NCBI RefSeq assembly: GCF_963921235.1
Contig: NC_086097.1
Coordinates: 6,882,001 to 6,946,000, forward strand
Direction of reading: 5' to 3'
From: Mobula hypostoma
Lineage: Eukaryota
DNA length: 64,000 nt
Shown piece after piece: positions 3,672-61,769 of this stretch. The position numbers and the translations under genes were made by a program. Position 1 is the stretch's first letter; each line of letters begins with the position of its first letter. A model generated the notes under the pieces. It searched no databases, was not told where the DNA came from, and was given only the letters and a program-made list of their open reading frames with translations.

Positions 3672-3905
3672 TAAATCTGCAGATGCTGGAGATCTGAAAC
3701 AAAAACAGGAAAATGCTAGGAAAACTCAGCAAGTCAAGCAACATCTGTGGAAAGAGAAACATTTAATGTTCAGCAAACCTTTGTCAGAACTAACTCTCCC
3801 TAAATGCATGAAGCAACACAATGCATGTTTAGTGACTTTATTTTTACAGATGGTGGCGTGGTTTTTGATTTTTTTTTCCAGCATTTTCTGGTTTTGTTTC
3901 AGCTC
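3672..3905. mobile_element. Old PLE pseudo-LTR derivative with a short inverted arm
   Basis: aatctgcagatgctggagatctgaaacaaaaacaggaaaatgct resembles the PLE 3' tail seen elsewhere in the window. An inverted copy (ccagcattttctggttttgtttcag) lies at about 3878-3902. Confidence 0.55.
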
Positions 3906-4087: not shown

Positions 4088-4089
4088 CT

Positions 4090-4410: not shown

Positions 4411-4551
4411 TATGATCTGTGAGCTTGGGAGTGAATGGCTATTTGACTCTATGTTTCTTCCAATCTATTTCCACTCCTGTCCACAGATATCCATAGGGAA
4501 CTGAATGGGTAATCATCCATAGCAGCAAGGTATGTGGCACTTTATTAGCTA

Positions 4552-4800: not shown

Positions 4801-4940
4801 TCTTCTGTGGGTCCATCCAAAGAGATGAATGGAAAATGTCCGAATCAGGTTTAAAATTACAGGGATATGTTATGAAATTTGTTGTTATGTAGTACAGTAC
4901 ATTGTAATATTTAATAAAAACTGTAATTCTGTATGTGTGC

Positions 4941-4944
<4 letters not shown>

Positions 4945-4977
<33 letters not shown>
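4945..4977. repeat. (TA)n microsatellite
   Basis: Pure TA run abutting the CR1 3' end. Confidence 0.95.
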
Positions 4978-4981
<4 letters not shown>

Positions 4982-12722: not shown

Positions 12723-12908
12723 TCATTTATCCAACAAAAAGTGAATATAAATGTTGTCTACAGTTGTTTAAAGTAATTTTATGTTCAAAACTCATGAATA
12801 GAGTTAGATCAATATAGCATAGATGCTATACTTACAATATATGTTCAAAAGCTAAAACATTACTTCATGTCAATGTATAAGCCTGCAACAAATGAGATTT
12901 CAGCAAAT

Positions 12909-13340
12909 GTCCTGAAGAAGGTTCTCAGCTCGAGATGTCAACTGTCTACAAGGCCATAAGACTATAACGTATAGGAGCAGAATGAGACCATTTGGCCCAT
13001 TGCATCTACTCTGTCATTTCATCATGGCTGATCCATTTTCCCTCTCAACACAAATCTCCTGCCTTCTCCCCGTATCCCTTCATGCCCTGACTAATCAAGA
13101 ATCTATCATCTTCTGCTTTAATATATCAAATGACTTGGCCTCCACAGCTGTCTGTGTCAGTGAATTTCACAGATTCACCACTAAAGAAATTCCTCCTGAT
13201 CTCCGTTCTAAAAGGATGCCCCTCTATTCTGAGGCTGTGTCCAATATTCATCTCCATTGATACTGCCTGACCTGCTGAGTTCCTCTGGCATTTTGTGTAC
13301 GTTGCTCTGGATTTCCAGTATCTCCAGAGTTTCTCATGTG
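12909..13340 (+). mobile_element. PLE pseudo-LTR fragment split by a - strand CR1 3' end (about 12950-13240)
   Basis: A degenerate hammerhead (gtcctgaagaagg...tcaactg) is followed by the CR1 tail. The PLE tail resumes at about 13250 (tgctgagttcctctggcattttgtg). Confidence 0.7.
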
Positions 13341-13530: not shown

Positions 13531-14127
13531 TCACAAACAAGAGAAAATCTGCAGATGCTGGAAACCTGAGCAATACACAGAAAACGCTGGAGGAGCTCAG
13601 CAGGCCAGGTGACTTCGTTGGAAAAAAGTACAGTCGGAGTTTCGGGTTGAAACCCTTCTGCAGGACTGGAGAGAAAAAGCTGAGGAGTAGATTTGAAAGG
13701 TGGGGAGAGGGGAGAGACAAACACCAGTGAAACCTGGACGGGGATGGATGAAGCGAAGAGCTAGGAAGTTGATTAGTGAAAGAAACATAAGTTATGGAAG
13801 AAAGAAAAAAGGGAGGGGGGAGCACCAGAGGGAGGCGATGGGTGGGCAAAAAGATAACAGGAGAGAGGGAAAAGGGGATGGGAGATGATGAAGGGGTGGT
13901 GTAGGCCAGTAATGCTCCCATTTCATTTCCCATATCCTTTTCCCTCATGTTATCTTCTTGCCCGCCCATTGCCTCTCTCTGGTGCTTCACTCTCCCCTCG
14001 TCCCACCTTTCAAATCTACTCCTCAGCTTTTTTTCTCCAATCCTGCCGCTGGGTTTCAGCCCGAAACATCGACTATGCTTTTTTCCATTGACGTTGCCTG
14101 GCCTACTGAGTTCCTCCAGCATTATGT
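13531..14127. mobile_element. Palindromic PLE insertion (two inverted pseudo-LTRs)
   Basis: The - arm (13531-13885) and + arm (about 13910-14127) are reverse complements. Flanking duplication atattgtac at 13518-13526 and 14128-14136. Confidence 0.85.
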
Positions 14128-14329: not shown

Positions 14330-14720
14330 ATAAACACAAGAGATTCTGCAGATGCTCTGGAAATCCAAAGCAACACACACAAAATGCTGGAGGAACTCAA
14401 CAGGTCAGGCAGCATCGAGGAAAATGAATAAACAGTTGACCTTTCAGGCCGGGACCCTTCATCATCACTGGAAATGAAGGGGGAAGGTTCTAGAATATAT
14501 AGGTGGGGGATGGGGAAGGAAGATACTGGAAGTTGATAGATGAAGCCAGATGGGTAGGGGAAGGAAGATTAAGGAAGAAGCTGGGAGACAACAAGTGGAA
14601 AAGGTAAAGGGCTGAAGAAGAATGAATTTAGTAGGAGAGGAGAGTGGACTACGAGAGGAAGGGAAAGAGGAGAGACACCAAGGAGAGGTGATAGGTACGT
14701 GAAAAGGGGTAAGAGGCCAA
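14330..14720 (-). mobile_element. PLE pseudo-LTR
   Basis: aaacacaagagattctgcagatgc tail, degenerate hammerhead at about 14433-14470, purine-rich body. Confidence 0.8.
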
Positions 14721-20520: not shown

Positions 20521-22321
20521 AGGTTACCTCAGTTCATGAATTTTTTTTAATTATTATATGTATTGAGATACATCACAGAAGAGGCCCTCGTGATCCTTTG
20601 ATCCACACTGCCCAGCAATCCCCCGATCCAATCCTAGCCTAATCACAGGACAATTTACAATGACCAATTAACCTACTAAGCTGTACATATTTGGTATATG
20701 GGAAGAAACTGTAGCACCCATGATGAATCCCACGGGGTCACAGGGAGAACATACAAATGCCTTACAGGCAGCTGCAGGATGCTGCAAATCAAATGCATTG
20801 TAAGGTTTCTGTTGACGAATTGAAGTAATCCCTTTAACTAATGAAGCAGTTTCCTGAACAAGGCTAAAATCACAGAACCTTCAGCAATATATCATTCTTC
20901 GGTAAGGAACTCAAAAGATGTTCCCTTAGCACTATTTAATGTTGTACAAATGCTGCAATTAGTCATCCGATTAGATTTAGACATGAGAAGTTAGTCTGTA
21001 CACATGATGTAATTTGCTAGCTATTTAGAATGTTGTTGCCAATTTCCAGTGAAGATTTCACAGGCTGGATTTTGTGGGAGTTTTCTTACACCTTGTAATA
21101 CTCAATTCCCATCACCCTGTGAACTTGCCCTTTGTCCGCACTGACATCTTGAGGCCGGATACTTCCTATCGGCTTCAGAGACGACCTACCATGGCCATTC
21201 CAAGTTCAAAGTTCAAAATAAATCTATCATCAAACTTCCCCTTCCTGAAGTCCACAATCAATTCCTTGGTCTTATTGATGTTGAGTGCAATGTTGTTGTT
21301 ACGAGATCACTCAACCAGCTGATCTGTCTTACTTGTGTATGTGTCTTCGTCACCATCTGAAACTCTGCCAACAATAGTTGTGTCATTGGCAACTTTATAG
21401 ATGACATTTGAGTTGTGCCTAGTGTGTGGACAAAAGTAGACAATTAATGACCACTAATTTAAAAATAATTAATTAATAACTTTCTTTTAAAATACAATAA
21501 ATTGGCATGAACTTATAAAACATTCTAATTAATTAAAGTAAGTTAAACAAAAGAAGCCTATCTTCACTGAATCACGAAAGATCTGCAGACACTGGAAATC
21601 TTGAACAACACTCACAAAGTGTTGGAGGGACTCGGCATGTCAGGCAGCATCCAGGAGGGGGGAGGGGAATAAACATTTAATATTTCAGTCTGAGACCCTT
21701 CATTAGTACTGGAAAGGAAGTAGGCAGATACCAGAATATGCTAAGAGAAAAGATTATTATCTTCACTTCATCATCTTTGCTTCCAACTTGCATCCTGCTG
21801 TCAAATTTGCTTGGTGAATCTCTGTGATCTCTTTCCCTTTTCTCAATCTCTCTGCTTTCATCTCTGGAGACTGACATCTTTTGGAAACCTACTCACTCTC
21901 TCAGTTATCTTGACTATACTTTTACCAACTCTGGCACTTGTAAAATTGCTATTCCATTGTCTTAGTTCCTCTCTTTTAACCACATCTGTTCACAGGATGA
22001 GACTTTCCATTTTAGAATATCTGAGATGCCCTTTTTTTAAAGAACTGGATTTTGAAGTTGGCTGTTGTGTCTGTGCACAACTACATATTGATTAAATAAA
22101 AGCACACACGCGAGAAGTGATTTAGCTGGTGTATTTACCTTGCAGTGAGAGAGAAAGAACAATGTGCATGCATAGACAACAGATCAATACGTAGCAGTAA
22201 GAGGGAGTCATTGTTGTAAAAGAAATAGACCATAAGACCATAAGACAAAGGAGCAGAAGTAGGCCATTCGGCCCATCGAGTCTGCTCCGCCATTTTATCA
22301 TGAGCCGATCCATTCTCCTAT

Positions 22322-28756: not shown

Positions 28757-29050
28757 ATCACAAGAGGTTCTGTAGATGCTGGAAGTCCAGAGGAACACAC
28801 ACAAAATGCTGGAGGACCAAAACAAAAGAAAATCTGCAGTTGCTGGAAATCAAAGTAATACACACAAAATTCTGGAGGAACTCAGATGGCCAGACAGCAT
28901 CTATGTAAGAGAGTGAACAGTCGACGTTTCGTGCCAAGACCCTTCATCAGGATGCAATTCTGGTGGAAATCCATCTGCAACAAGTAGGATTTCCCGATGT
29001 CTCACTATGTTTATTCCAATCCCCATTCCCATTCCGACATGTCCATTGAT
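28757..29050 (-). mobile_element. PLE pseudo-LTR fragments with a doubled tail and a hammerhead core
   Basis: Two tandem tails (28757-28816, 28820-28953). The - strand reads ctgatgaagggtcttggcacgaaacgtcgactg. A short + strand GIY-YIG-region remnant follows. Confidence 0.7.
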
Positions 29051-30300: not shown

Positions 30301-32017
30301 AAAAGAAGCTGACTTGAAATGTCTGATGCCATTTTACTTCATGAACAGTTGGAATTATTCTGACGTCTATTACGGTCAATTGTCACTCACATTTTGCTTG
30401 GGTAAGACAGCTCTGATGAAGGTAGTCCTCAGAGCAGAGACAGTATTTGCTGAGGTGGATAACTTCATTGGAATAACCTCCAGCCACTTTGAATGATTAT
30501 CCAAAGCATTCTGAACATGGAGTCCATGAATGGCCCACCAAGCAACATCAATATATACTCTTTGCCATTCTGATGTCGGCCACTCCCACAGGTGCACTTT
30601 GAACTATTTGGCATCCCAAACAGCTTTTAGCCGAGTCTGCAATCTGTCTATCTATTCCCGGCCACCACACAGAGTGGCTCCGGGTGAGATTCTTCAGCTT
30701 GACTGTACGCAGGTGACCTTTATACTGATCTTCTAACACTCTGGTATGCAGTTTAGAGGAAACTTTGACATACCAACTTTTTGTCTCAGCTCGCTGAGAA
30801 CTCTGGAAACATGGAGTTACCTTGAGCTGGCCAGCCTTGCATGGTGATTTCATAGACTTGTGGCAATATCGGGTCATTCCTTATTTCTCTTTGTATTTCG
30901 GAATTTGTTACCAGCAACTAGTCACCAGTACAGTGTAGAAACTTTTGCTGGGTCACAACATTAAGATTTTTCTTCTTCAGTTACCAGCAGTGGAAGGTGT
31001 GACTGGTTATCAGCATTGCTGTGTTGTTTGGTACTTTTGGTACTATATCATAAGAGTGGGCTCCTAGTAATATTGCCCAATGTTATAATCGAATAGTGGT
31101 CATCATTGGAATTCCCTTCCCAGGATTGAAAATTGACACAAGGGGCTGGTGATCTATCACTAGCATAAACTCCTGTCTATAAAGGTAGTGGAGGAACTTC
31201 TTTATTCCCCATTCTAGACCAAGGGCCTCTCAGTTGATCTGTGCAGTGTTGTGTTCTGTGTTCATTAGTGATCTTGAAGAAAATGCAATCAGATGTGTGT
31301 GACAAAATGGGTTCAATGCCATAAGGGGATGCATCAAATGCCAGTGTGATGGGCAAAAATGGGTCATAATGGGTGAGCAGTTCATCTCATGTTATTAGTC
31401 TCTTTGTTTCCTTGAATTGGCTTTCACATCTTTCTGACCATTCCCACTTTGTACCTGTCTGTAACAGTGAGGTCAATGGATGCAGCACTGTGGCAAAGTT
31501 TGGGAGAAACCAGTGGTATTAGTTTAGAAGTATGACCTGAGTTGTGACATCTTCTTTTGTTTGGGTGCCTGAAACACTGCTTCAGTCTTCTCTTGGGACA
31601 TAGGTAAGCCATGCTTGTCAATAACATGTCCACAATATGAGACTTCATTCTTGAAAAGCTCACATTTCTCTCTCTATGCACGCAGACTATACTCACTCAG
31701 CCTGGTAAGCACTTAACCAAGGTTCTGGAGGTGCTCTTCATCATTCTTCCCAGTCACGATGATGTCATCAAGGTAGCACTATATTCCTGAGATATCTTGG
31801 AGTACTTTGTCCTTTGCGCTTTGACAAATTGCTGGAGATGATGTGATGCCAAAGATGAGACAATTATAACGAAACAGTCCCTTGTGAGTGTTCGTTGTGA
31901 GGAACTTCCTGCTTGACTCCTCAATCTCCATTTGCAGATAGGCTTGTGACAAGTCAATCTTTGAAAATTTCCCATTGCCTGCTGTGACAAGAATACACAT
32001 AGATAAGATGTTAGCTG

Positions 32018-32161
32018 CATACATCAAAGTTGCTGGTGAACGCAGCAGGCCAAGCAGCATCTATAGGAAGAGGTGCAGTCGACGTTTCAGGCCGAGACCC
32101 TTCGTCAGGACTAACTGAAGGAAGAGTGAGTAAGGGATTTGAAAGCTGGAGGGGGAGGGGG
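32018..32161 (-). mobile_element. Young PLE pseudo-LTR fragment inside the solo LTR
   Basis: Nearly identical to 49322-49465. Flanked by the 12-bp duplication agatgttagctg (32006-32017 / 32162-32173). Confidence 0.9.
32077..32112 (-). ncRNA. Minimal type I hammerhead ribozyme motif, intact core
   Basis: The - strand reads AGTC CTGACGA AGG gtctcgg CCT GAA ACGT C GACT. Confidence 0.8.
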
Positions 32162-34817
32162 AGATGTTAGCTGTCCTGTGTGATCAGCAGTTGGTCTGTC
32201 ACCTGTCTTCAGGAGAGAGAGAGATAAGGAAAACAATGGAGTAGCATTGGAGATGTGTAATGAAGGGGAAGGAGAGCTGTCAAGAGCCGCTCCCCCTTTG
32301 AACCCTGAACTGTTTGAAGTGATGGACAGGCGATACCCCAGCAGGGGGATAAAAAGGGACAGGTTCGCTAAGGCAGACACACATGACACTCGAGGTAACG
32401 AGACCCTGGAAGCGGTGCGCCTCTCACAAGTCGGTGGGAAGCTTTTGCACGGCTGATCAAGGGATCAAGCCATGAACGCACAGGGTGGAAAGGCACGATC
32501 GGCGGGAACCTGGTGTGTGTCCACCCTTGCCTGGGTGCCAGGTTCAGCGCAGGGAAACGATCGTATCTGGAAACGGAGGGGTCACGGTCGGTGACCTCAG
32601 ATGACATCACAAAGGACTCGCCCGACAGCTGACTGCGAAGGTCTGTGTGTGGAAGCTGTGTTGAATATTCATTCGTTTTGCTCTCTCTCCTCCCCCCCCT
32701 CCCCCCCACTGTCCATCGCCACAGCAATGATTACTGCGAACTGAACTAAATTGAACTGAACTTTGTGTCACTTTGAAACTGGTCATTTGCCCCTAGACAA
32801 CGATAGAGCTTGATTGATCCTGAATTCTGTGTACATGTATGTTTATCATTGCTGAACTGTTGCATTCAGTATCCTTTTGATTAGAGTACTGTGTTGCTTG
32901 TTTCTTTAATAAAACTTTCTTAGTTCTAGTAATCCAGACTCCAACTGAGTGATCCATTTCTGCTGGTTTGGCAACCCAGTTACAGGGTACATAACACTGC
33001 CAAAGATGAAAAAATGTCTTCTATTCATGCCAGGGGATACTGCACAGTACGCAGCACTGGCCTGATGCTTACTTTGAAATCCTCACATATGCAAACGACA
33101 CCAGCCTATTCCTTTCTTGATTACTGGAACAATGGGCATGACCCAATCACTCCACTCAACCTTGGAGAGAATTCAAATGCCTCCAGGTTCTGAAGTTCAG
33201 CATCCACTTTAGGATGTAGTGCATAAGGCAATGGACACACTATATGGAATCTTGATATTGCTGCTTCATCCAGTTCAATTCTGCCCCTCATGCCTTTTAG
33301 TTTGACAATCTTCTTCTCAAACACCTTCTCATTAGCATTAAGCACTTGTGCCTGTCTCCGGTTAATGCGACCATTTGGACTTGTTGCCTGTTGATGCCAC
33401 ACTGAGAACTTTGACTGAGTGCCAGCCTAGTTGGATTTTTCTCAACCATTCACATCCGAAAAGTGCTGGCTCTCCATTTTTCAATATATAAAGCTCTAAC
33501 TGCTTTGTTTGGCCACCATACATCACATTTACTTTCAGATGCCTTTGGGAGACGTTTTTTCACCTGTGTAGATCTATCACATCACTGAGGTCTTCTCTAA
33601 TGGGGGCTTTGAAAACAGTCTGTTGTTGTCAGCCTCTGGAAATGTTGACAAAGCTGACCCTGTATCCAGCTCCATTTTCAGTTTTACAACAGACATATCT
33701 ATTGTGATCCAAATGATTTTGTGATCTGCTTCAGTTATACAATGCAGTTCTAAGTGTGACAGCTCACCCTTGTCAGACTCTGTGTTGTTTGATTCTGTTT
33801 CACATTTGGTCTCTTTATGCATTTGCTTAGTTTTGTGTTTGAAAGTTTTCACTCGGTTGTGTTTTTGTCTGTCTTGCACACTCTCGCTACGTGACCTTGT
33901 CCGTGACACTGTCAGCAAACTTTTCCCTTAAACCAACAGCCATTTACATCATGGGAAGATTTGCCATATTGATAACATTTGAGGGTTTTTGCATCAATCA
34001 GGGACATTTTGTGCATTTCACTTTCTCACCTCTTTTCTGTAGTTCTGTTGCAGTCTCTAACAATATTGCAATGGCCAATGCCCATTCTAAGGTTAGGTCT
34101 TTTTCTGCAGTAAACTCTTTTGAATGCTTTGATTATGTATGCCACATACAAACCTGTCCCTGAATGCATCAGAAAGTCCATCTCTAAACTCACAGTACTG
34201 GGAAAGTTTGTGCAGTTCTACAATGTATTCAGAAATGCTTTCATCCTTTGACTGGTTCCTTTTGTGAAATCTAAATATCTCAACCTTTACCAGCAGTTTA
34301 GGGGGTCAAGTGATTCTGTAAAATTGCAACAATTTCATTGAATGTCTTGCTTGCTGGCTTTTCAGTGGTTACTAAGTTGCATGAAAGACTGATGTCATTG
34401 CACTCATTAAGCTATGAAGTATTGGGGCTTTCTTTTGCTCCTCCACATTGTTTGTGTTACAGTTCAACCCTCTCGATATACAACTCCCAGCCTTCATTAG
34501 TGCTATCAAATTCATCAGCTTTCCCGACTGAAGCCATCATCACATTATTTTCACTTCACATTTTGCTAGTTGCACGTCTTTCACTGTGTATTCTGCTGCA
34601 CTGAAGTGTTCCTTTGTTAGCGTCCGTGATGGATTCATACTGTTTAACTCTTTCCTCCCACTGTTTCGTCCCATAACTGTCGGTGCAGGTCGTGATATTT
34701 TCTGACGTTCAGGTTCATACTTGTTGCCAATTTGCTGTGTGTGTGCACAATGACATATTGATTAAACAAAAGCACACACGTGGGAGATGGCTTTAACTGG
34801 TGTATTCACACTGCAGC

Positions 34818-34843: not shown

Positions 34844-37104
34844 AAACAACAGGCATGTGTCGAGAACAGACCAATGTGTGTAAACAACAGATCAATACGT
34901 ATGTAGTGATAAGGGGAATCATTACTTTAAAAGGAATAGATCCATTTATTATATTGGACTCACTTGTAACTCCCCCATTTCCCACACATCTTTCCTTACC
35001 CATCCTCCTGTTGCCATAACAGGGATAGAGTTCACCTTGATCGTACCTACTACCCCATGCGCCTCTGTATCCATCACATCATTTTGCATAACCTCCATCA
35101 TCTCCAGTGGGATCCTACAAAAAAGTATGTTTTCCCTTTGCCCCTCTCTCTGCTTCCCATAGGATCATGCTCTATGTGACTCCCTGATCCACTCATTCCT
35201 CCCCACTGATCTCCCTCCCGGCACTTATCCCTGCAAGTGGGACGAGCGCTATACTTGCTCCTACACCTCCTCCCTCATCACCCAAACAGTCCTTCCAGGT
35301 GAGGCAACAGTTCTCCTGCGAGTCTGTCAGGGTCACCTACTCTGTCTGGTGTTCCAGGTGCAGTCTTCTCTGCATCTGTGAGATTCAATGTAGATTGGGG
35401 AAGTGCATTGTCAAATACCTTTGCTGCATCCACTGCAAGAAGCAGGGTCTCCCAGTGGCTACTGACTTCAGTTGGACTTCTTGTTCCCATTCTGAAATGT
35501 TTGGCAATGGACTTCTCTACTGCCACAAAACAACCAAACCCAGGTGGAAGGACCAAACACCTCATATTCTGTTTGGGTAGCTTCCAACCTGATGGCACCA
35601 ACACTGATTTCTCCAGCTTCCGATTATTTCTCCTTCCTCCCCTCTTTATCTATTCTCTATTCTAGTTACTCCCTCACCCTTTCTCTTCTCCTCAGGTACC
35701 CATCACCTCCCTCTGGTTCCCACTTCCTTCCCTTTCTTCCATTGTCCACGTTCCTCAGATTCCTTCTTCTTCAGCCTCTACCACCTCCCAGGTTCTCACT
35801 TCATCTTCCCTGCCCAAACCCACCTACCTTCCACCTCACCTGGACTCACCTATCACTTGCCAGCTTGTTCTCCTTGCCCAACCCCCACTTTCTGTATTAC
35901 ATATTATTATAGACTTACAGTGCAGAAGTCCTTTCAGCCCAATGAACCACACTGCCAAGCCTATTTATCCCTAGTCTAATCAGAGGACAATTTACAATAA
36001 CTAATTCGCCGACTGACAGGTGTGTCTTTGGACACTGGGAGGAAACTAGAGCACCCAGAGGCAACCCGCACAGTCATGGGATGACGTCTATTATTAAGGA
36101 CCCCCATCACCCAGGACATGCCCTCTTCTCATTGCTACCATCAAGAAGGAGGTACAGAAGACCGAAGCAACACACTCAGTGATTCAGGAACAGCTTCTTC
36201 CACACTGCCATCTGATTTGTAAATGGATATTGAACCCATGAGCACTCTCACTGATTTTTATTATTTCTGTTTTGCATTACTATTTTTAATTTAACTAATT
36301 ATTATACATACGTGTACTTACTCTAATTCATTATTTTTTCTATATTTATCATGTATTGCACTGTACTGCTGCTGCTATGTGAACAAATTTCATGACACAT
36401 GCCGGTGATATTAAACCTGATTCTGATTCTTACAGACAGCAGTGAAATTGAACTCCGATCTCCAATGCCCCAAGCTGTAATAGCGCTCTGCTAACTTATT
36501 CTGGCTTCTGCCCCCGTCCTTTCCAGTCCTGATGAAAGGTCTCAGCTGACTGTCTGTAATGCTCCATTGATGCTCCCCGTCTTGCTGAGTTGCGCGAGCA
36601 TTCTGCGTGTGTACCTACCTTTAATGTTTTCGCAAAGAGTATCAGCCTCACTCAAAAAAGAGTGGGACCCCTTGTCTTTCTGAATGCCTGTTAAACATCT
36701 GTTTAAACCGCCTACTGAACATTTAGAACCAATGAACACAGATGTCACTGAAATGCAAATAAAACTCTGACTTAATATACAAATAATTTTCTTTTTTTTC
36801 AGGACCAGTGTTCTGATCCACTAGACCCGGACTTCTGAGATCGTGAGAGTGGAACTGCGCCAGTGCAGTAGCTTTTCTGCTTTAAAAACTCTCCCGCACA
36901 GGTTTCCTGTCTTCAGTGGACACAATGGACGACCACCACTGTTCTGAAGACCAGCCTTCAAATTCCACATAATACTGAATAGATAATAATCCTGATATGT
37001 GGTTAGAAGTTAGAGTCTGCGTGACAAATCTTAGGAACTCATTAGAATGAGACAATACACCAGTCATCATCAGCTCTATATTGCAGTGAGTGCTTTAGGA
37101 TTTA

Positions 37105-38804: not shown

Positions 38805-39640
38805 CCAACGTGACTCCCTTGTCCAATCATCCCTCCCCACTGATCTCCCTTTTGGTATTTATCTCTTCAAGCAGAACAAGTGCCATCCGCACATCTCCTC
38901 CCGACAAACATTCAGGGTCCCAAGCAGTCCTTCCAGCTGAGGAGACACTTCCCCTGCGAGGCTGTTGTGGTCACCTCCTGTATCCGGTGCTCCCAATGTG
39001 GCCTTCTGTGAAGCCCGACGTAGATTGGGAGACTACTTCGCAGAAAAAAAGTGGGATCTCCCTTTGGCCACCTATTTCAATTCTACTTCCCATTCCCATT
39101 CCACCATGTTAGTCCATAGCCTCCCCTACTACCACAATGAGGGCACACTCTGGTTGGAAACGCAACACCTTATATTCCGTCTGGGTAGCCTACAATCTGA
39201 TGCCATGAACATCAATTTCTCGAACTTCGAATTGCCCCACCCACCCCCCTCTCCTTCACCATTCCCCATTCCTGTTTCCCTCTCTCACGTTATCTCCTGA
39301 CTTGCCCATCCTCTCCCTCAGGTGCTCCTCCCCCTTCTCTTTCTTCCGCGGTCTTATGTTCTCTCCAATCAGATTCTACCTTGTCTGGCCCTTTACCTCT
39401 TTCACCAGTTTCCCAGCTCTTTACTTCACTCCATCCTCCTCTCCCAGTTTCACCTATCACCTACCACCTTGTACTTCTTCCTCTCCTCCCTCTCAGCTTC
39501 CTACTCTGACTACTCATCTTCCTTTCCATTCCTGATGAAGGGTCTCAGCCGAAATCTCAACTGTTCACTCTTTTCCATCGATGATGCCTGGCAGGCTGAG
39601 TTCCTCTAGCATTTTCTGTGTGATGCTTTGGATTTGCAGA
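38805..39640 (+). mobile_element. PLE 3' portion (GIY-YIG and pseudo-LTR)
   Basis: Translates EARRRLGDYFAE and LETQHLIFRLGSLQSDAMNINFSNF. Degenerate hammerhead at about 39529-39563. Confidence 0.85.
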
Positions 39641-40409
39641 TAAGTCAGTGTGTGTCTCTGCAGCATTACCACAACCACCAGGGGATCTTTGACACAAAGA
39701 GAACTGAGAGTAAAGGGCGTGTGTAAGTAGCTGAAATCTGGCTGCTGCACACATTATTCTGCATACCCCATGCCTCCCTAATGATGTAATGTGCTCAACT
39801 CCAAGCATGCACTATCAAGATGGTACTACACACATTGGCTAATGGAAATGTGCAATTACTCTGTCACATCCTCCTACAAGCTGTTATCCATGACATCAAA
39901 GATCAATAAAATCACTTTTTATTGATTTCCACTAAATAATTCTTAGCTATTGTAACAGCAAATCTTTAAAAACAGATTTCTTGAATAAAATTCCAGACCC
40001 ATATCTTCTCTGAAATCACCTTCATCCTCCAAAAAATCAAGGTCTGTTCAAGCTCAAGTTTATTGTCATTCAACTGTCCGCGTGTATACCACCAAATAAA
40101 GTAACATTCCTCCAGCCAAGGTGCACAGTATTGTACATACTACTCATGCAACACTTGACATAATATTTTCTTCCTGCCCAGTATGCCACTGGTGTTTAGG
40201 GCAGCAATGAAGGGCACACCTCTGGCAGTGTTCAGGGCTTCCTGCATCATGTCAGTCACTTTCTTTCAGTTTTCATTAGTCAATCAGTCAAGTACTGGGG
40301 TGACACTCAGGAAAGCTGTCACACTCAGATGTAGAAGGATTCTTCATTGTTGCTTCCATAACAATTTTGTTTTGCCAGTTAAGGTTGTTAGCCTTGGTAT
40401 ATTAAACTT

Positions 40410-41720
40410 TTATGTGCATACGCAGATTAGGGATAGTCAGCATGGGCTTTGTCAACGGCAGGTTGTGCCTTACGAGCCTGATTGAATTATTTGAGGATGT
40501 AACAAAACACACTGATGAAGGTAGGGTAGTGGAAGCAGTGTATATGGATTTCAGTAAGGCATTTGATAAAGTTCCCCATGTGAGGCTCATTCAGAAAGTA
40601 AGGAGGCATGGGATCCCAGTAGACCTTGCTTTGTGGATCCAGAATTGGTTTACCCACGGAAGGCAAAGGGTGGTTGTAGATGGTTCATATTCTGCATGGA
40701 GATGGGTGACCAGTGGTGTTCTGCAGGGATCTGTTCTGGGATCCCTCCTCTTTGTGATTTTTAAAAATGACCTGGATGAAGAAGTAGAAAGGTGGGTGAG
40801 TAAGTTTTCTGATGACACAAAGGTTGGGGGTGTTGTGGATAGTGTGGAGGGCTGTCAGAGGATATAGTGGAACTTTGATAGGATGCAGAACTGGACTGAG
40901 AAGTGGCAGATGGACTTCAGCCCAGATAAGTGTGAAGTGTTTCATTTTGGTAGGTCCAATTTGAAGACAGAATATAATATAAATGGTAAGACTCTTGGCA
41001 GTGTCGAGAATATGAAAGATCTTGTGGTACGTGTCCATAGGACACTCAGAGCTGCTGTGCAGGTTGACAGTGTTAAGAAAGTGTATGGTGTGTTGGTATT
41101 CATCAACCACGGGAATGAGTTCAAGAACCGTGAGGTAATATTAAAGCTATATTAGACCTTGGTCAGGCCCCACTTGGAGTACTGTGCTCAGTTCTGGTCA
41201 CCTCATTACAGGAAGGATGTGGATACTATAGAGAGAGTGCAGTGGAGATTTACAAGGACGTTGCCTGGATTGGCGGGTGAACCTTACAGGAATAGGTTGG
41301 GTGAACTTGGCCTTTTCTCCTTGGAGTGATAAAAGATGAGAGGTGACCTGATAGAGGTGTATAAGATGATGAGGGTCATTGATCAGGTGGATAGCCAGGG
41401 GCTTTTTCCCAGGGCCAAAATGGCTAATGCGAGGGGCATAGTTTTAAGGTGCTTAGAAGTAGGTACAGGGGGAATATCAGGGGTAAGTTTTCACACACAG
41501 AGTGGTGGGTGCATGGAATGCCCTGCCAGTTGCGGTAGTGGAATGGATACAGTAGGGTCTTTTAAGAGCCTCTCAGATAGGTACATAGACCTTAGAAGAA
41601 AAGAGGGCTATGCACTAGTGAAATTCTAGGCAGTCTCTAGAGTAGTTTACATGGTCGGCACAAATTTATGGGCCGAAGGGCCTGTAATATGCTGTAAATT
41701 TCTATATTCTATGTTTTATT
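40410..41720 (+). mobile_element. CR1 LINE, 5'-truncated, decayed
   Basis: ORF 40412..40867 (DFSKAFDKVPH, KFSDD), plus 40883..41155 and 41336..41629. Confidence 0.93.
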
Positions 41721-42189
41721 TAATATAGCCATTGGCAATAATAGTGAGCAGTTACTTGTATAGAAGTAATTATATAAAATACAAGTAGATAATTAATTGT
41801 TAAACTGTAAAAAATGACAATTAAACAGTCTAATCTGAGAATTAAGCAATCGAATCCGAAGCATTATTCGACACATTTACCCAGCAGTTGCATTCAAACA
41901 CACTCTCACGAGCACTTCACACAAAATGCTGGAAACTCTCAGCAAGCCAGGCAGCATCTAGGAAAAGAGTACAGTTGACGTTTTGGGCCAAAATCATTCG
42001 GCAGGACTTGCTCTTTTGGATCACCAATGCATATTTGGGGATCAAAGGGCTGCCTGTATCAGGAGCCTTGTGTTGGATTTGCAAATGATGTGGCTTCCCC
42101 AAAGGAGTCAATGCTACTGTGACACTGTAATTTCCTTTGGGATCCATGAAGTATTTATCTATCTATCTATCTATCTATCTACTTATCTT

Positions 42190-47569: not shown

Positions 47570-48516
47570 AGGTGGAAAGAGAACAATACCTATTTCCCTA
47601 ATGAGCCTCTGCATCCAGCACATCATTCTTCACCACTTCCACAGGATCCAACCAGCAAATTCACTTTTTCCTTTCCCCCCACTTTCTGCTTTCCACATGT
47701 TTCTCTTGTCCATTCTTCCCTCCCGCTCCCAGCACTTATCCTTGCAAGATCAAGCAGTGCTACACCTTCCCATTTACCTTCTCCCTCATCTTCATGCAGG
47801 GTGTTAAACTGTACTTCCAGCTGAGGCAATACTTCACCTTTGAAGCTGTTGGGATCATCGACTCTATCCGGCGAGGCTTCTTCTATAACAGAGGGACTCA
47901 ACGTTGATTGGGGAACCACTTTGTGGAGCACTTTATTGATCCACAGCAAGCAGGACTTCCTGTTGGCTAAGCATTTTATTTCCAGTCCCTGTTCCCATCC
48001 CAACATGTTGGTCCACGGCCTCCTTTACTGCAACAAGAGGCCACTCGCAGGTTGGAGGATCAACACCTCATATTCTGTCTGGATAGACTCCAACCTGATG
48101 GCATAAACATCAATTTCTCCATTTTCTAGTAATTGTTCCCCCTCCCTCTTCCCTCGTTTTCCATGCCCCACTTCAGCTCACCTTCTACCTCTTCTCCTCA
48201 CCTGGCTATCTCCTCTCCCTGGTGCCCATCTTCCTTTTCTTTCTCTCATGGTCCTCTCTCCTCTCCTATCAGATTCCTTATTCTTTAGCCCTTTTCCACC
48301 AGTCACCTCACAGCTTTTCACTTCATCCCTCCTCCCCCACCCACGTGACATCACGTTCTAGCTGGTAATCCTTCCCCTCCCCCCACGTTTCTATTCTAGC
48401 CTCTTCACCCTTTCTTTCCTCTCTTCATAAAGGGTCTCAGCCTGAAATGTCGACTGTTTATTCCCCTCCATAAATACTGCCTGAACTGCTGAGATCCCCC
48501 AGCATTTTGTGTGTGT
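47570..48516 (+). mobile_element. PLE 3' portion (GIY-YIG and pseudo-LTR), decayed
   Basis: Translates SLCIQHIILHHFH...FPFPPLSAF. caacacctcatattctgtctgg. Degenerate hammerhead at about 48421-48456. Confidence 0.8.
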
Positions 48517-49380
48517 TACACCTAACCCCACGAGGCACACGAGGATAACATTCTTCAGTGAACACACATGCATGCTAGGCTCAAATCAAGAAAAACAGAC
48601 AGGTAAACTCAGATCGGTAAACTCAGACAGCAATAAAATAATTTGTGTACAGTAAATTCAGTAGAAAGGTTAAGCAATAAGCTTAAGTGAGAGTTGCACA
48701 CCCAAATGAATCCAAACCAGAATTTGTTTGCATGATTTGTTATTTTTTTTCTGTACATTAGGCATTTGAAGATCTTTTTTTAATGCGTGACATTGGGTTT
48801 CTCTGATTTGTGACTGAATGTAAGGAGACAAAACTCAAGTTTGTATGTAGAATACATACTTTGATGACAAACCTACTTTGACTTAGAATCAGGTTAATAT
48901 CACTGGTATACAGCATGAAATTTGTTGTTTTACTCAGCAGTACAATGCAATACATAATAAAAAAAACTAGAAATTACAAGAAATATATATATAAAATTAA
49001 GTTAAATAAATAGTGCAAAAAGAGAGCAAAAAACTAGTGATGCAGTGTACATGAGTTCACTGTCCATTCAGAAATCTGATGGAGGGAAAAAAGCTGATGT
49101 TAAAATATTGAGTGTGTGTCTTCAGGCTACTGTATCACCTCAGAATCAGAAGAATGCAAATCTCACATGTTTGATATTCATTTATGAGATTCCTGAGTTC
49201 TGGTGAGTTCAGAGAGACTTGATACATATGGTAGGTACCAAGAAAGTCATTAAATTTGATATTTGCTGTTCCCAACATTTAGTCCACAGACCCCAGGTTG
49301 GGAACCTCTGATTTAAACTAACATACATCAAAGTTGCTGGTGAACGCAGCAGGCCAGGCAGCATCTATAGGACGAGGCGC

Positions 49381-49416
49381 AGTCGACGTTTCAGGCCGAG
49401 ACCCTTCGTCAGGACT
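49381..49416 (-). ncRNA. Minimal hammerhead ribozyme motif, intact core
   Basis: The - strand reads AGTC CTGACGA AGG gtctcgg CCT GAA ACGT C GACT. Confidence 0.8.
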
Positions 49417-49987
49417 AACTGAAGGAAGAGTGAGTAAGGGATTTGAAAGCTGGAGGGGGAGGGGGAGATGCAAAATGATAGGAGAAGACAGGAGGGGGAG
49501 GGATGGAGCCGAGAGCTGGACAGGTGATAGGCAGAAGGGGATACGAGAGGATCATGGGACAGGAGGTCCGGGAAGAAAGACGGGGGGGGTGACCCAGAGG
49601 ATGGGCAAGAGGTATATTCAGAGGGACAGAGGGAGAAAAAGGAGAGTGAGAGAAAGAATGTGTGCATTAAAGAGAGTAACAGATGGGGTACGAGGGGGAG
49701 GTGGGGCCTAGCGGAAGTTAGAGAAGTCAATGTTCATGCCATCAGGTTGGAGGCTACCCAGACGGAATATAAGGTGTTGTTCCTCCAACCTGAGTGTGGC
49801 ATCATCTTCACCCCCCCCCCCCGTCTTTCTTCCCGGACCTCCTGTCCCATGATCCTCTCGTATCCCCTTCTGCCTATCACCTGTCCAGCTCTCGGCTCCA
49901 TCCCTCCCCCTCCTGTCTTCTCCTATCATTTTGCATCTCCCCCTCCCCCTCCAGCTTTCAAATCCCTTACTCACTCTTCCTTCAGTT

Positions 49988-50023
49988 AGTCCTGACGAAG
50001 GGTCTCGGCCTGAAACGTCGACT
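49988..50023 (+). ncRNA. Minimal hammerhead ribozyme motif, intact core; predicted cleavage after C50019
   Basis: Stem I AGTC/GACT, core CTGACGA, stem II AGG/CCT, GAA, palindromic stem III ACGT, GUC cleavage triplet. Confidence 0.82.
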
Positions 50024-50937
50024 GTACCTCTTCCTATAGATGCTGCCTAGCCTGCTGCGTTCACCAGCAACTTTGATGTATGTTGCTTGAATTTCCAGCA
50101 TCTGCAGAATTCCTGTTGTTTCTGATTTAAACTATTCAATTTCATATAGTTTCAGTTGTTCGCAAAAAATGTACACTATGAAAGGCATCCCAGTCTACAC
50201 CTGACTTTATTGATGTACAGACAATATATCCTTCAGTTGTGCTACAGTGACTGTGTATCATTCGTTCCTCTTGCAACACTTGGACATTAGGCCTGAACAA
50301 TGAATTGTCTGGGATGGAGAAGCCACTTCAGAGGATCAGAAAAAGCAGCAGAAAGTTACTAACTCAGACAGCTCCGTCATGGGCACTACTTTCTCCAGCA
50401 ATGAGGACATACTCAAAAGTCAAATCCCAAAAAATATGGCATCCACCACCCAGGACATGCCCTCTTAAGAAATATAAGACATATCAGCAAAATTTGGCTT
50501 TTCGGCCTATTGAGTCTGCTCTGCCATTTCGTCACAGCTGATCCAATTCCCTCTCAACTTCATTCTCCTGCCTTCTCCCCATAGACTCTTCTTATCACTA
50601 CCATCAAGGAAGAGGTACAAGAGCCTGAAGACTCAGACTCAGTGTTTCAGGATCAGCTTTTGAATCAGATTTATTTATTGAGATACAGAGTGGCCAACAA
50701 TCCTGATTTAATCCTAGCCTAATTATCAAACAATTTATGATAATAGTTAACCTACCAAATGGTACGTCTTTGGACTGTGGGAAGAAACCAGAACACTCAG
50801 AGGAAACCCATGCAGTCACAAACTCCTTACACGCAGCAGTGGGAATTGAACTCGGCTTGCTGGCAATGTGCTAACCACTATGCTGCCATGCCACGCCTAT
50901 TTCTGAACGGTCAATGAATCCATGTACACTACCTCAC

Positions 50938-51778
50938 AAACAGGAGAAAATTTGCAGATGCTGGAAATCCAAGCAACACACACACAATGCTGGAGGAACT
51001 TAGCAGGCCAGGTAGCATCTATGGAAAAAAGTACAGTTGATGTTTCAGGCCAAGATCCTTTGGCAGGACTGGAAAAAAAAAGATGAGCAGTAGATTTAAA
51101 AGCTGGAGGGAGGGGAGAGAGAAACACCAGGTGATAGGTGAAACTGGGAGGGGGAGGGATGAAGTAAAGAGCTCGGAAGTTGATTGGTGAAAGAAACACA
51201 GGGCTGGAGAAGGGGAAATCTAATATGACAGGACATAAGTCCATGGAAGAAAGGAGAGGGGCATTCCCATTCCAATATGTTAATCCATGGCCTCCTCTAT
51301 TGTCATGATGAGGCCACACTCAGGTTGGAGGAGTGATACCTTATATTCCGTCTGGGTAGCCTCCAACCTGATGGCATGAACGTCGATTTTTCAAACTTCT
51401 GGTAATGGCTCCCCCACCTTCACTATTCCCCATCCCCTTTCCCTCTCTCACTCTATTTCCCTACCTGCCCATTTTCTCTCTCTGGTGCTCTTCCTCCCTC
51501 TTGTTTCTTCCATGGCCTTCTGTTCTCTCCTATTGGATTCCCCTTTCTTCAGCCCTGTATCTCTTTCACCAATCAACTTCCCAGCTCTTTACTTCATCCC
51601 TCCCCCTCCCGGTTTCACCTGTCACCTTGTGTTTCTCTCTCCCCTCCCCCACCTTTTAAATCTACTCCTCAGCTTTTCTCTCCAGTCATGTGAAGGGTTT
51701 CTGCCCGAAACCCCAGCTGTACATTTTTCCACAGATGCTGCCTGACCTGATGAGCTCCTCCAGCATTTTGTGTGTATT
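50938..51778. mobile_element. Palindromic PLE insertion, older
   Basis: - arm 50938-51260 and + arm about 51265-51778, the latter including the GIY-YIG end. TSD acactacctcac / atactatctcac (50926-50937 / 51779-51790). Confidence 0.85.
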
Positions 51779-52707: not shown

Positions 52708-53335
52708 CAGACATCCCACGCTGCAAAAACTCATTTCAGGGAGCTAGCACCATCAATTTGCGGGAGACTTCCGGGAGAGGTGTGACGTTTGCAATAGAGT
52801 AGCTCCTTAGCAGCTAGCCAGCTAGTTTAAATAACGTTAGCTACGCTGATGAACGAATGACACCTGTTAAACTCACCTCAACATGACTTTTACAGTCTTA
52901 ACCCACCATGGGCAATAGCAGCGAGCAACACTGTCATTATTTTGAGCCCTATTTGACAGGGGTACACTTTAGGGTAGTCTGGGATGACGAAAGTTTTATA
53001 TTTGCAAACACGAGGAAATCGGCAGATGCTGGAAATTCAAGCAACACACATCAAAGTTGTTGGTGAACGCAGCAGGTCAGGCAGCATCTCGAGGAAGAGG
53101 TACAGTCGACGTTTCAGGCCGGGACCCTTCGTCAGGACCCTCTCGCGCTCGCTCTCACTCGCGCTTGCTTTCTTGCTCTTGCGCTCGCTCTCTCACTCTT
53201 TCTCATGCGTTCTCTCACGCTCGCTCTCAAAAAAAAATTCAATTTCCGGGACATTGTATATAATTTGCGGGCATCAGGGAGCCACTATTAATATGCGGGA
53301 GACTCCCGGAAGTTCCGGGAGAGGTGGGATGTCTG
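52708..53335. mobile_element. Non-autonomous hAT-like DNA transposon with a ~6-bp TSD
   Basis: TIR cagacatccca / tgggatgtctg, subterminal gcgggagact(t/c)ccgg motifs, flanks atctta / agctta. Confidence 0.8.
53006..53138 (-). mobile_element. Young PLE pseudo-LTR fragment with an intact hammerhead core (53105-53138)
   Basis: The - strand reads gtc ctgacga agg gtcccgg cct gaa acgt c gac. Nearly identical to the 49321 family. Confidence 0.85.
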
Positions 53336-54454: not shown

Positions 54455-54850
54455 TTGATTTCTCCTTCTGGTAAAAGATAATCCCTCCCCCTCCCATCCT
54501 CTTCTATTCCCCACTCTGGTCTTTTACCCTTTTTCACTTCTTTCTGGATCCCCTCCTACTTCCCTTTCTCCTATAGTCCACTCCCCTCGCTATCAGATTC
54601 CTTCCTCACCAGCCCTTTACCTTTCCCACCCACCTGGCTTCACCTATCACCTTCCAGCGATCCTTCTTCCTCTCCCGCCACCACTTTATTCCAGTGTCTT
54701 CCCCCTTCCTTTCCTGTCCTGAAGAAGGGTCTTGGTCTGAAACGTCAATTGTTTATTCATTTCCACAGATGCTGCCTGACTTTCTGAGTTCCTCCAGCAT
54801 TTTGTCTGTGTTGCATTGGATTTCCAGCGTCTGTATGACGTTTCCAGTAT
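54455..54850 (+). mobile_element. PLE pseudo-LTR
   Basis: Pyrimidine-rich body, hammerhead variant gtcctgaagaagggtcttggtctgaaacgtca at about 54716-54748, typical tail. Confidence 0.85.
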
Positions 54851-61093: not shown

Positions 61094-61769
61094 TGATGTG
61101 GATATCTAAGGCCTTTAATATTGTCAATAAGGAACATCTTCTGATATTGATTTCTCTCAAGTTTAATGTAATGCAGGGAAAATATAATCGTCATTTCAAC
61201 ACACACAAAATTCAGGCGGAACTCAGCAAATCAGGCAGCACTGATGGAAATGAACAAACAGCTGACATTTCAGGCTGAGATCTTCTTCAGGACGGAAGTA
61301 TACTTATTGTCAAAAGTAATTTGCCTTGTTTATTGTTCAGAAGAATTACATTAAAATGGAACCCATTCGGTTTATATTGCCTTCACTTAACCAAAGTGAC
61401 CAGATATTGTAACAATCTACTTACATACAAGGGATGTATGTAGAAAGTAAGACCGATTGTGTACTGAAACATTTCAAACCATGTTTAGATAACGTAACAT
61501 TACCTTTACCAGCCAATGACCCTTAGTTTAGTTCAGCTTGGCTGAGTTATGAGCAATCTGCAGCATATCAATAAACAATTCAAAACAATAATTGATCTTA
61601 ATTCATCTGTAAGGCAAAGGGTGAGAACTGAAGAAATATGAACCTTTTATTCTAATTTATATTTGAACTATTATTCTTTATTTTTATTTGGTACCTCATG
61701 GTATGTTGACATAACTGGCAACGCATCACCCCCCTTTGATTGCTCTGTGCTGAGGAAGCAGTTGATTTT

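What the first reader, a model, noticed from the sequence alone, without database searches (positions are those of the whole stretch)
49988..50023. Intact minimal hammerhead ribozymes in a young Penelope pseudo-LTR family, with about 18 hammerhead motifs in 64 kb
Seen: AGTC-CTGACGA-AGG(gtctcgg)CCT-GAA-ACGT-C-GACT. This gives stem I, the CUGANGA core, stem II, GAAA, a palindromic ACGT stem III and a GUC cleavage site. The same motif occurs at 49381-49416(-) and 32077-32112(-), with a one-base loop variant at 53105-53138(-). More or less decayed copies lie near 12909, 13631, 14040, 14433, 21677, 28918, 36524, 39529, 41972, 48421, 51034, 51683, 54716 and 61259. Established: Penelope-like element pLTRs carry minimal type I hammerheads whose palindromic stem III favours dimeric cleavage. 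Inference: this genome holds a very large, recently active ribozyme-bearing retroelement family, and its copies could cut any transcript crossing this locus in either direction.
Basis: partly seen in the sequence, partly recalled or inferred. Interest (0 to 1): 0.78.

Follow-up and report, generated by a model that had tools for sequence, protein, structure and literature searches.

The report
Penelope retroelement hammerhead motifs, known kind
The small self-cutting-RNA (hammerhead) motif is really there, as part of the tail end of a hugely abundant Penelope-like jumping gene; this link is already known, and the copies in this stretch look like inert debris, not cutters of passing transcripts.

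Summary
The 36-nt motif is at 49988-50023(+), 49381-49416(-) and 32077-32112(-), with a 2-mismatch copy at 53104-53139(-). Fifteen decayed homologous copies bring the window total to 19.

The carrier is a Penelope-like element (PLE). A single ORF encodes reverse transcriptase followed by a GIY-YIG endonuclease. About 300 nt of 3'UTR follow, then the hammerhead, then about 100 nt that can end in an optional 37-nt "tail".

The 49.3-50.1 kb pair is one head-to-head insertion (49320-50121) with a 12-bp target-site duplication. The family is very large and young: the exact 32-mer occurs 39,517 times in the 3.48-Gb genome.

Three points go against "intact ribozymes that cut any transcript":
- The dominant variant has U instead of C at position 11.1.
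- An older subfamily of at least 1,209 copies has C at core position 6.
- No covariation, Rfam hit or RNA end evidence was obtained. A read-through transcript of the inverted pair is predicted to bury the motif in a long hairpin.

Hammerheads in PLE pLTRs are in print (Cervera and De la Pena 2014). This scan has already noted the same kind in other shark-like genomes. Verdict: a correct catch and a new member of a known kind, of low interest.

The parts
49988..50023 (+). Minimal type I hammerhead motif (stem I 5' strand, CUGACGA core, stem II, GAA, ACGU, C17, stem I 3' strand); predicted cut after C50019
   Evidence: letters read directly
49381..49416 (-). Identical hammerhead motif in the other arm of the same insertion
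32077..32112 (-). Identical hammerhead motif in a separate 5'-truncated copy (about 32013-32166)
53104..53139 (-). Variant motif (2 mismatches) at the very 5' end of a short copy (52995-53139) that starts with the hammerhead
49320..49814 (-). Longer arm of the head-to-head insertion: end of the endonuclease ORF, 3'UTR, hammerhead and 3' end without tail
49714..49809 (-). Remnant of the C-terminal GIY-YIG endonuclease coding region (94% aa identity to the L011 ORF)
49815..50121 (+). Shorter inverted arm: 3'UTR part, hammerhead and 3' end with tail; differs from the other arm at 4 of 270 aligned bases
50085..50121 (+). Optional 37-nt PLE 'tail', present on this arm only
   Evidence: PMC11167929 and PMC8557442 describe a 30-40 bp tail
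49308..49319 (.). Left copy of the 12-bp target-site duplication
50122..50133 (.). Right copy of the 12-bp target-site duplication
51035..51070 (-). Decayed hammerhead of an older head-to-head pair (partner at about 51684-51717 +); core reads CUGCCAA
51684..51717 (+). Decayed hammerhead, partner of 51035; about 285 nt after the endonuclease remnant 51253-51399
13632..13667 (-). Decayed hammerhead (CUGCAGA, GGG/CCC stem II) of an old head-to-head pair with 14039
14039..14074 (+). Decayed hammerhead, partner of 13632
12908..12943 (+). Decayed hammerhead copy
14434..14469 (-). Decayed hammerhead copy (C3 lost)
21675..21710 (-). Decayed hammerhead copy
28919..28954 (-). Older copy with all core letters kept but damaged helices I and II; homology starts at the motif
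36525..36551 (+). Decayed hammerhead with the GAAAC-GUC part deleted
39527..39560 (+). Decayed hammerhead about 296 nt after the endonuclease remnant 38812-39231
41973..42008 (-). Decayed hammerhead (CUGCCGA type)
48420..48455 (+). Decayed hammerhead about 300 nt after the endonuclease remnant 47601-48120
54715..54750 (+). Older copy with core letters kept (CUGAAGA) and stem I broken
61259..61294 (-). Decayed hammerhead copy
3756..3791 (-).
35000..35623 (+). Old PLE endonuclease-coding remnant with frame breaks
   Evidence: tblastn, E 1e-42
38812..39231 (+). Old PLE endonuclease-coding remnant
47601..48120 (+). Old PLE endonuclease-coding remnant
51253..51399 (+). PLE endonuclease C-terminal remnant (82% aa identity)

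Best explanation
The motifs are the minimal hammerhead module in the 3' terminal region of an endonuclease-positive Penelope-like retroelement.

Unit layout: 5'UTR, then one ORF (N-terminal domain, reverse transcriptase, linker with a CX4CxxC motif, GIY-YIG endonuclease), then about 300 nt of 3'UTR, the 36-nt hammerhead, and about 60 nt or about 97 nt to the end (without or with a 37-nt tail). When a truncated copy lies in tandem upstream of a full copy, this same region acts as the pseudo-LTR.

The copies in this window are 5'-truncated insertions made by target-primed reverse transcription. The 49320-50121 pair is one event, primed outward from both sides of one break: two arms head to head, a 12-bp target-site duplication, and a tail on one arm only.

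Inferred, not shown: in source elements the RNA motif helps process or mark the element's own RNA, working only as a dimer or with the element's protein. In the dead copies here it does nothing to host transcripts. The sequence block is held by selection in source elements, but strong self-cleavage may not be what is selected.
For: Identity of the carrier:
- In locus L011 the ORF ends with GIY...YIG, two Cys between them, R, EH, E and N. The 3'UTR, hammerhead and tail follow.
- L028 has an 819-aa open frame with RT motifs right after an upstream partial copy.
- Pfam gives RVT_1 (E 1.5e-5) and GIY-YIG (E 1.9e-4) in the expected order.
- 584 homologues have E<=1e-10. Of the 120 listed, 24 also carry PF01541.

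PLE insertion signatures:
- In 16 of 29 loci the 3' module ends at a fixed 443-444 bp before the 5' region, which is a partial tandem (pLTR).
- Head-to-head pairs occur in the window and in many loci.
- Among 72 copies, 33 end at 494-505 and 39 at 522-537, two 3' ends about 36 nt apart.
- The 12-bp target-site duplication is exact.
- In 4 of 5 window copies with an endonuclease remnant, the motif lies 285-300 nt after it.

Selection on the block: across the 15 older window copies, identity to the young copy is 76% in the motif, 33% just upstream and 48-60% downstream.

Size and youth: 39,517 exact 32-mers. All 41 listed matches to the 5' region (40 candidates scored) are 99-100% identical, out of 2,438 candidates. 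The two arms differ at 4 of 270 bases.

Literature: PMC4209133 (whole text) describes minimal hammerheads in PLE pLTRs, including pairs 100-700 bp apart on opposite strands. PMC8557442 (passages) describes pLTRs, inverted truncated copies and a one-sided 30-40 bp tail.
Against: - No Rfam hammerhead model matches, even at E<=10 on 91 nt. This is expected for a motif without helix III, but it is still a negative.
- Both Pfam hits fall just below the curated cut-offs: 25.2 against 29.6 bits, and 22.1 against 22.6 bits.
- Helix pairs in the 19 window copies show no covariation beyond shuffles: 1 pair with a double change, reached in 358 of 500 shuffles.
- The monomer's best predicted fold is not the hammerhead, with z = -0.37. 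The predicted best dimer is an extended duplex, not the active dimer.
- The dominant variant lacks G10.1-C11.1.
- An older subfamily of at least 1,209 copies has C at core position 6.
- None of 46 internal 5' ends lies at the predicted cut site, plus or minus 2 nt.
- No RNA data could be examined.
Confidence: 0.85

Rival explanations
1. The block is kept for a job other than self-cleavage. It could be a binding or folding landmark for the element's RT-endonuclease near the reverse-transcription start, or the start point of the element's RNA. Catalysis would then be dispensable or already weakened.
For: - All 15 upstream pLTR motifs found in ORF-bearing young copies carry U at 11.1: 13 exact and 2 single-base variants. 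None has C.
- 39,517 copies have U and 6,052 have C.
- An older subfamily spread with C at core position 6. It has 1,209 exact 18-mers, and 20 of 20 fetched copies share its own flanks or consensus.
- Of 46 internal 5' ends, 7 lie on the first or second base of the motif and 14 within 396-405. Three of these are solo copies with target-site duplications.
- The block downstream of the motif is conserved too.
- PMC11167929 (passages) reports that catalytic mutants of the anole PLE hammerhead did not change insertion in vitro, and that cleavage needed the protein.
Against: - Every core letter is kept in the young family. The layout matches the published PLE consensus, including the unpaired base after A9 and the palindromic 15.2-16.2 pair, which is hard to explain without ribozyme ancestry.
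- That changes at position 6 abolish cleavage is recalled from classic mutagenesis, not checked here.
- A G.U pair at 10.1-11.1 may still allow cleavage.
- Most full-length copies have upstream partial copies much longer than a start at the motif would give.
Confidence: 0.3
2. The short copies that consist only of hammerhead plus tail (about 97-135 bp) are a separate non-autonomous element. It would be retrozyme-like or SINE-like, mobilised by the PLE, and not random truncations.
For: - 5' ends pile up at the first bases of the motif.
- In 5 window copies (3795, 21710, 28952, 42008, 53138) the homology to the young copy begins at 49984-49990, the motif's 5' edge.
- bioRxiv 10.64898/2026.07.22.740005 (abstract and Results section read) argues that animal retrozymes derive from PLE pLTRs, and finds them in its one cartilaginous fish.
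Against: - No head-to-tail array of short units occurs in the window. Same-strand neighbours are at least 800 bp apart.
- The one tandem examined (L005) is a tandem of long partial PLE copies.
- 5' ends are otherwise spread over the whole 3' region, as expected for truncation.
- No circular or cleaved RNA was seen, because no RNA data were usable.
Confidence: 0.15
3. The resemblance to a hammerhead is a chance feature of a repeat consensus with no ribozyme ancestry.
For: No Rfam hit. No covariation. No significant fold.
Against: - All 11 fixed core letters, H17, the A15.1/U16.1 letters, two helices and the palindrome sit in the published order, at the published place in the published element class.
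- The block is the best conserved part of the non-coding region across old lineages.
Confidence: 0.02

Closest known systems
Minimal hammerheads (min-HHR) in the pLTRs of metazoan Penelope-like elements (Cervera and De la Pena 2014, PMC4209133; whole text read)
   Same: - Type I layout with no real helix III and a palindromic 15.2-16.2 pair.
- Short helix I (4 bp) and an unpaired base after A9.
- Location in the repeated end of a PLE.
- Thousands of mostly solitary copies, with pairs on opposite strands 100-700 bp apart.
   Different: - The dominant variant has U at 11.1, where the paper stresses a highly conserved G10.1-C11.1.
- Helix II is short (3-4 bp) against the 7-8 bp reported for schistosome families.
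- The young family is almost uniform, whereas the paper found extreme variability except in D. virilis.
- The copy number (39,517 + 6,052 exact) is several times the roughly 4,000-9,000 reported for coelacanth and Xenopus.
Poseidon element of Anolis carolinensis (PAc) and its protein-assisted hammerhead (PMC11167929; passages read)
   Same: - RT-GIY-YIG element.
- Two alternative 3' ends that define a 30-40 nt tail.
- Extension from both DNA strands in vitro, which fits head-to-head insertions.
- A hammerhead in the pLTR.
   Different: - In PAc the ORF starts inside the hammerhead. Here the cut site lies about 170 nt before the open frame and about 445 nt before its first in-frame ATG.
- The endonuclease linker here has a CX4CxxC motif, which PMC8557442 assigns to Neptune/Nematis and not to Penelope/Poseidon.
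Neptune / Nematis clades of endonuclease-positive PLEs (Craig et al. 2021, PMC8557442; passages read)
   Same: C-terminal GIY-YIG with two Cys between GIY and YIG, an upstream CX2-5CxxC-like motif, pLTRs, inverted truncated copies, and a tail at one end.
   Different: No tree was built here, so clade placement rests on the motif alone.
Metazoan non-LTR retrozymes (PMC7229834, search listing and abstract only; bioRxiv 10.64898/2026.07.22.740005, abstract and Results)
   Same: Type I hammerhead, PLE-derived sequence, non-autonomous short copies.
   Different: Retrozymes are head-to-tail arrays that give small circular RNAs. No such array is in this window, and no circular RNA evidence was available.

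Membership tests
Hammerhead ribozyme, minimal type I (PLE type) | Core letters C3 U4 G5 A6 N7 G8 A9 and G12 A13 A14 | tested here: met
   Present in 4 of 19 window copies and in the 39,517-copy genomic 32-mer. Lost in most old copies.
Hammerhead ribozyme, minimal type I (PLE type) | Cleavage-site triplet with U16.1 and H17 (GUC), and A15.1 able to pair with U16.1 | tested here: met
   ACGU-C is read directly. The pairing is possible only between two molecules.
Hammerhead ribozyme, minimal type I (PLE type) | Helices I and II base-paired | tested here: met
   Helix I is AGUC/GACU. Helix II is GGGU/GCCU (two wobbles) or AGG/CCU. The predicted monomer fold contains both helices but adds a competing GACG/CGUC helix.
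Hammerhead ribozyme, minimal type I (PLE type) | G10.1-C11.1 closing pair of helix II | tested here: not met
   The window's intact copies and the dominant genomic variant have U at 11.1. A 6,052-copy variant and the older GGG/CCC type have C.
Hammerhead ribozyme, minimal type I (PLE type) | Compensatory changes in the helices across copies | tested here: inconclusive
   1 double change in 8 pairs, no better than shuffles. The copies are too closely related and are decaying neutrally.
Hammerhead ribozyme, minimal type I (PLE type) | Match to a curated covariance model (Rfam hammerhead families) | tested here: not met
   No hammerhead family is listed at gathering score or at E<=10.
Hammerhead ribozyme, minimal type I (PLE type) | Site-specific Mg2+-dependent self-cleavage | not testable with these tools
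   This needs in vitro transcription. No RNA reads were available.
Penelope-like element, endonuclease-positive | One ORF with reverse transcriptase followed by a GIY-YIG endonuclease | tested here: met
   The Pfam scores are just under the curated cut-offs. 24 of 120 listed homologues carry PF01541.
Penelope-like element, endonuclease-positive | CCHH-type motif with two Cys between GIY and YIG; R, H, E, N catalytic residues | tested here: met
   Read in the L011 and L028 translations, by eye only.
Penelope-like element, endonuclease-positive | Partial tandem giving a pseudo-LTR | tested here: met
   16 of 29 loci have an upstream partial copy ending at a fixed distance from the 5' region. Not present in the window itself.
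Penelope-like element, endonuclease-positive | Adjacent inverted 5'-truncated copy | tested here: met
   Window pairs at 49320-50121, 51035/51684 and 13632/14039, and many loci.
Penelope-like element, endonuclease-positive | Optional 30-40 nt tail at one end | tested here: met
   A 37-nt tail on the right arm only. Two 3'-end classes, 33 and 39 of 72 copies.
Metazoan non-LTR retrozyme | Head-to-tail arrays of short hammerhead units yielding circular RNA | tested here: not met
   No such array in the window. Genome-wide arrays and RNA were not examined.

The most novel reading that the evidence does not exclude
The hammerhead block of this family may be kept mainly as a landmark and not as a cutter. 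The first base of the motif is a preferred 5' end of retrotransposed copies and sits as A+1 of an initiator-like YYANWYY word. The lineage now spreading carries a weakened 10.1-11.1 pair, and an older lineage spread with a changed core base. If so, transcripts would start at the motif, and the roughly 100-135-nt 'hammerhead plus tail' RNA would be the minimal unit that the element's protein recognises and copies. Self-cleavage would be optional.
Probability: 0.2. Interest if true: 0.55.

Novelty: new member of a known kind. Interest (0 to 1): 0.25.

Why it matters
This finding mostly serves annotation. The window, and about 45,000 places in this genome, carry a formally complete hammerhead core that motif searches will flag. 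They should be read as Penelope-like element ends, not as host ribozymes.

The family could still be a good natural test set. It offers three abundant variants of one motif (U11.1, C11.1 and C at core position 6) with known copy numbers, clean head-to-head insertions, two 3' ends, and a sharp 5'-end preference at the motif edge. Comparing their cleavage and mobilisation would address the open question of what hammerheads do for Penelope-like elements.

Tried and rejected
- **Rfam.** Scans of the whole window at gathering score and at E<=10, and of 91 nt around the motif, list no hammerhead family.
- **Fuzzy regex.** A fuzzy regular-expression scan timed out. I replaced it with an ungapped mismatch scan.
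- **Covariation.** The count on the 19 window copies is no better than shuffles.
- **Folding.** The monomer is not significant and the best fold is not the hammerhead. The predicted best dimer is an extended duplex.
- **RNA evidence.** No RNA holder is listed. All 23 runs are kept as contigs, and their RNA status is only a guess. Four runs were laid, but contigs cannot show RNA ends or strand, so nothing on expression or cleavage follows. From that call I take only two weak hints: contigs of several coded organisms hold the family, and a C variant at 50011 is common in them.
- **Genomic fossils of cleavage.** 0 of 46 internal 5' ends lie at 427-431. A small group at 437-438 (by eye 432-438) is blurred by a GTA/GCG polymorphism in my reference.
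- **LINE 3' end idea.** I considered that the motif might belong to a CR1-like LINE, because 28919-28954(-) lies about 210 bp after the LINE ORF 29167-30333(-). I rejected this. That copy is a short form starting at the motif, and longer copies elsewhere run into a GIY-YIG ORF.
- **Not used.** Structure prediction, complex prediction and the protein atlas were not needed.

Full report
**Observation**

The 36-mer recurs exactly at 49381-49416(-) and 32077-32112(-), and with two mismatches at 53104-53139(-); none was expected in 100 shuffles. A looser core pattern gives 6 hits against 0 expected. An ungapped scan at up to 11 mismatches gives 14 sites, against 0 in each of 20 shuffles.

They align with the rest. 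That makes 19 homologous copies in the window, 4 of them with a complete core and both helices.

**What carries the motif**

Self-comparison shows that 49313-49589 and 49815-50091 are inverted arms, 97% complementary, with 225 nt between them. The minus strand of that centre reads as the C-terminal end of a protein.

The window's own genome (3.48 Gb, 200 contigs) holds the 32-mer 39,517 times, against 0 for the reversed control. In stretches fetched around such hits the same region continues upstream into an ORF. That ORF ends with a GIY...YIG endonuclease, with two Cys between the two motifs and R, EH, E and N after them. Further upstream lies a reverse transcriptase.

Pfam finds RVT_1 (E 1.5e-5, 25.2 bits against a cut-off of 29.6) and GIY-YIG (E 1.9e-4, 22.1 against 22.6) in that order. 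A search with the N-terminal and RT part finds 584 proteins at E<=1e-10. Of the 120 listed, 24 also carry PF01541, and the closest named ones come from cartilaginous fishes. RT followed by GIY-YIG in one ORF is the mark of endonuclease-positive Penelope-like elements (PMC8557442, passages; PMC4209133). The linker has a CX4CxxC motif, which that paper assigns to Neptune/Nematis and not to Penelope/Poseidon. I built no tree.

**Insertion anatomy**

In 16 of 29 loci found with the element's 5' region, a partial copy ends at a fixed 443-444 bp upstream of it. The starts of these partial copies vary. This is the partial tandem that makes a pseudo-LTR, and the hammerhead lies in it.

The window pair is a single event spanning 49320-50121:
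- A longer minus-strand copy reaches into the endonuclease coding end.
- A shorter plus-strand copy is joined to it head to head.
- An exact 12-bp duplication flanks the pair at 49308-49319 and 50122-50133.
- A 37-nt extension is present on the right arm only.
- The arms differ at 4 of 270 bases.

In an unbiased sample of 72 copies picked by a tail anchor, 33 end at 494-505 and 39 at 522-537 of my reference. These are two ends about 36 nt apart. They match the optional 30-40 nt tail and the two reverse-transcription start sites reported for PLEs (PMC11167929, PMC8557442, passages). Two older head-to-head pairs are at 51035/51684 and 13632/14039. In 4 of 5 window copies that keep an endonuclease remnant, the motif lies 285-300 nt after it.

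**Is the motif a working ribozyme?**

The layout fits the published minimal PLE hammerhead. Helix I has 4 bp. The core is CUGACGA, followed by an unpaired A, a short helix II and GAA. ACGU forms a palindrome that can make helix III only between two molecules, and C17 follows (PMC4209133). Several results argue for caution:

- **Position 11.1.** The paper stresses a conserved G10.1-C11.1. The C variant exists in 6,052 exact copies, and older copies have GGG/CCC. However, all 15 upstream pLTR motifs found in ORF-bearing young copies have U (13 exact, 2 single-base variants).
- **Core position 6.** An older subfamily has C at this position, reading CUGCCGA. It has 1,209 exact 18-mers against 1,461 for the A form in the same context. 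The 20 fetched copies share their own consensus. That changes at position 6 abolish cleavage is my recollection of classic mutagenesis, not a result here.
- **No covariation.** Helix pairs across the 19 window copies show no covariation beyond shuffles. This is expected for neutral decay of close relatives and says little either way.
- **No Rfam match.** No Rfam hammerhead model matches.
- **Folding.** Prediction does not favour the hammerhead in the monomer (z -0.37) or in the dimer.
- **No cleavage fossils.** None of 46 internal 5' ends lies at the predicted cut site, plus or minus 2 nt.
- **No usable RNA data**.

On the other side, the 36-nt block is the best conserved part of the non-coding region. 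Across the 15 older window copies, identity to the young copy is 76% in the motif (83% outside CpG), 33% just upstream and 48-60% downstream. Source elements therefore keep it under selection.

**Effect on host transcripts**

- Single minimal motifs showed no detectable cleavage, and dimers only low activity (PMC4209133).
- The anole PLE motif needed its protein, and no reads ended at its site (PMC11167929).
- A read-through RNA of the inverted pair is predicted to form one long hairpin in which all 36 motif bases pair with the other arm.
- Same-strand intact copies in the window are kilobases apart.

**Comparison and novelty**

Hammerheads in PLE pLTRs, their massive numbers, opposite-strand pairs, tails and inverted copies are all in print. 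A 2026 preprint reports PLEs and PLE-derived retrozymes in its one cartilaginous fish. This scan has already noted the same kind in other shark-like genomes (e1-7788964, e1-7788970, e1-7788743).

Three things are particular here:
- the copy number, at least 45,569 exact motifs of two variants;
- the near-uniform young family with U at 11.1;
- the older core-variant subfamily.

**Side observation**

5' ends of copies pile up on the first or second base of the motif. This holds for 7 of 46 internal ends, with 14 within 396-405. Three of these are solo copies with clear target-site duplications, and several type-B copies do the same. The bases around that point (TTAGTCC, CCAGTCC) fit an initiator-like YYANWYY word. 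Whether that marks an RNA start is untested, and most full-length copies do not start there.

Noticed in passing
G000 loci L049-L108 (ref positions 396-405 of L028:564-1100); window 53139, 28954, 21710, 42008: Many truncated copies begin exactly at the first or second base of the hammerhead: 7 of 46 internal 5' ends, with 14 within 10 nt. Three are solo copies with target-site duplications (L065, L080, L094). The surrounding letters fit an initiator-like YYANWYY word. This is not the ribozyme cut site.
   Followed up: partly
window 13632-13667(-), 14039-14074(+), 41973-42008(-), 51035-51070(-); loci L109-L128: An older PLE subfamily carries C instead of A at hammerhead core position 6, with a GGG/CCC helix II. 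The genome holds 1,209 exact 18-mers. So a lineage spread with a core change that is expected to hurt catalysis.
   Followed up: partly
window 13801-14006: Sub-threshold Rfam plant microRNA-precursor matches (MIR1858 at 68 bits against a 137 cut-off, and others) are simply the long hairpin formed by an old head-to-head PLE pair. They are not a microRNA gene.
   Followed up: partly
window 50025-50026 against 49378-49379: Two of the four differences between the arms of the single insertion are an adjacent GTA/GCG difference that is also a common polymorphism of the family. The two arms may have been copied from two different template RNAs.
   Followed up: no
window 29167-30333(-), 1454-2596(-), 23060-23956(-), 40406-40864(+), 27665-28489(+): Other retroelement ORFs with RVT_1 hits. 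The one at 29167-30333 has a C-terminal stretch that I recall as typical of CR1-like LINEs. 27665-28489 hits ALKBH8_N (PF09004). None is part of the PLE family.
   Followed up: partly
L011 (G000:C1:519600-524900) 1692-3929(-) and 3812-5081(+): One PLE copy has its 5' part inverted relative to its 3' part, with about 118 bp of overlap. This resembles a twin-priming inversion. It also has an extra 87-bp tandem duplication in the 5' region that the 29 other loci fetched with that region lack.
   Followed up: no
window 4921-4985: A (TA)n/(TG)n microsatellite gives weak mir-297-like Rfam matches that are low-complexity artefacts.
   Followed up: no
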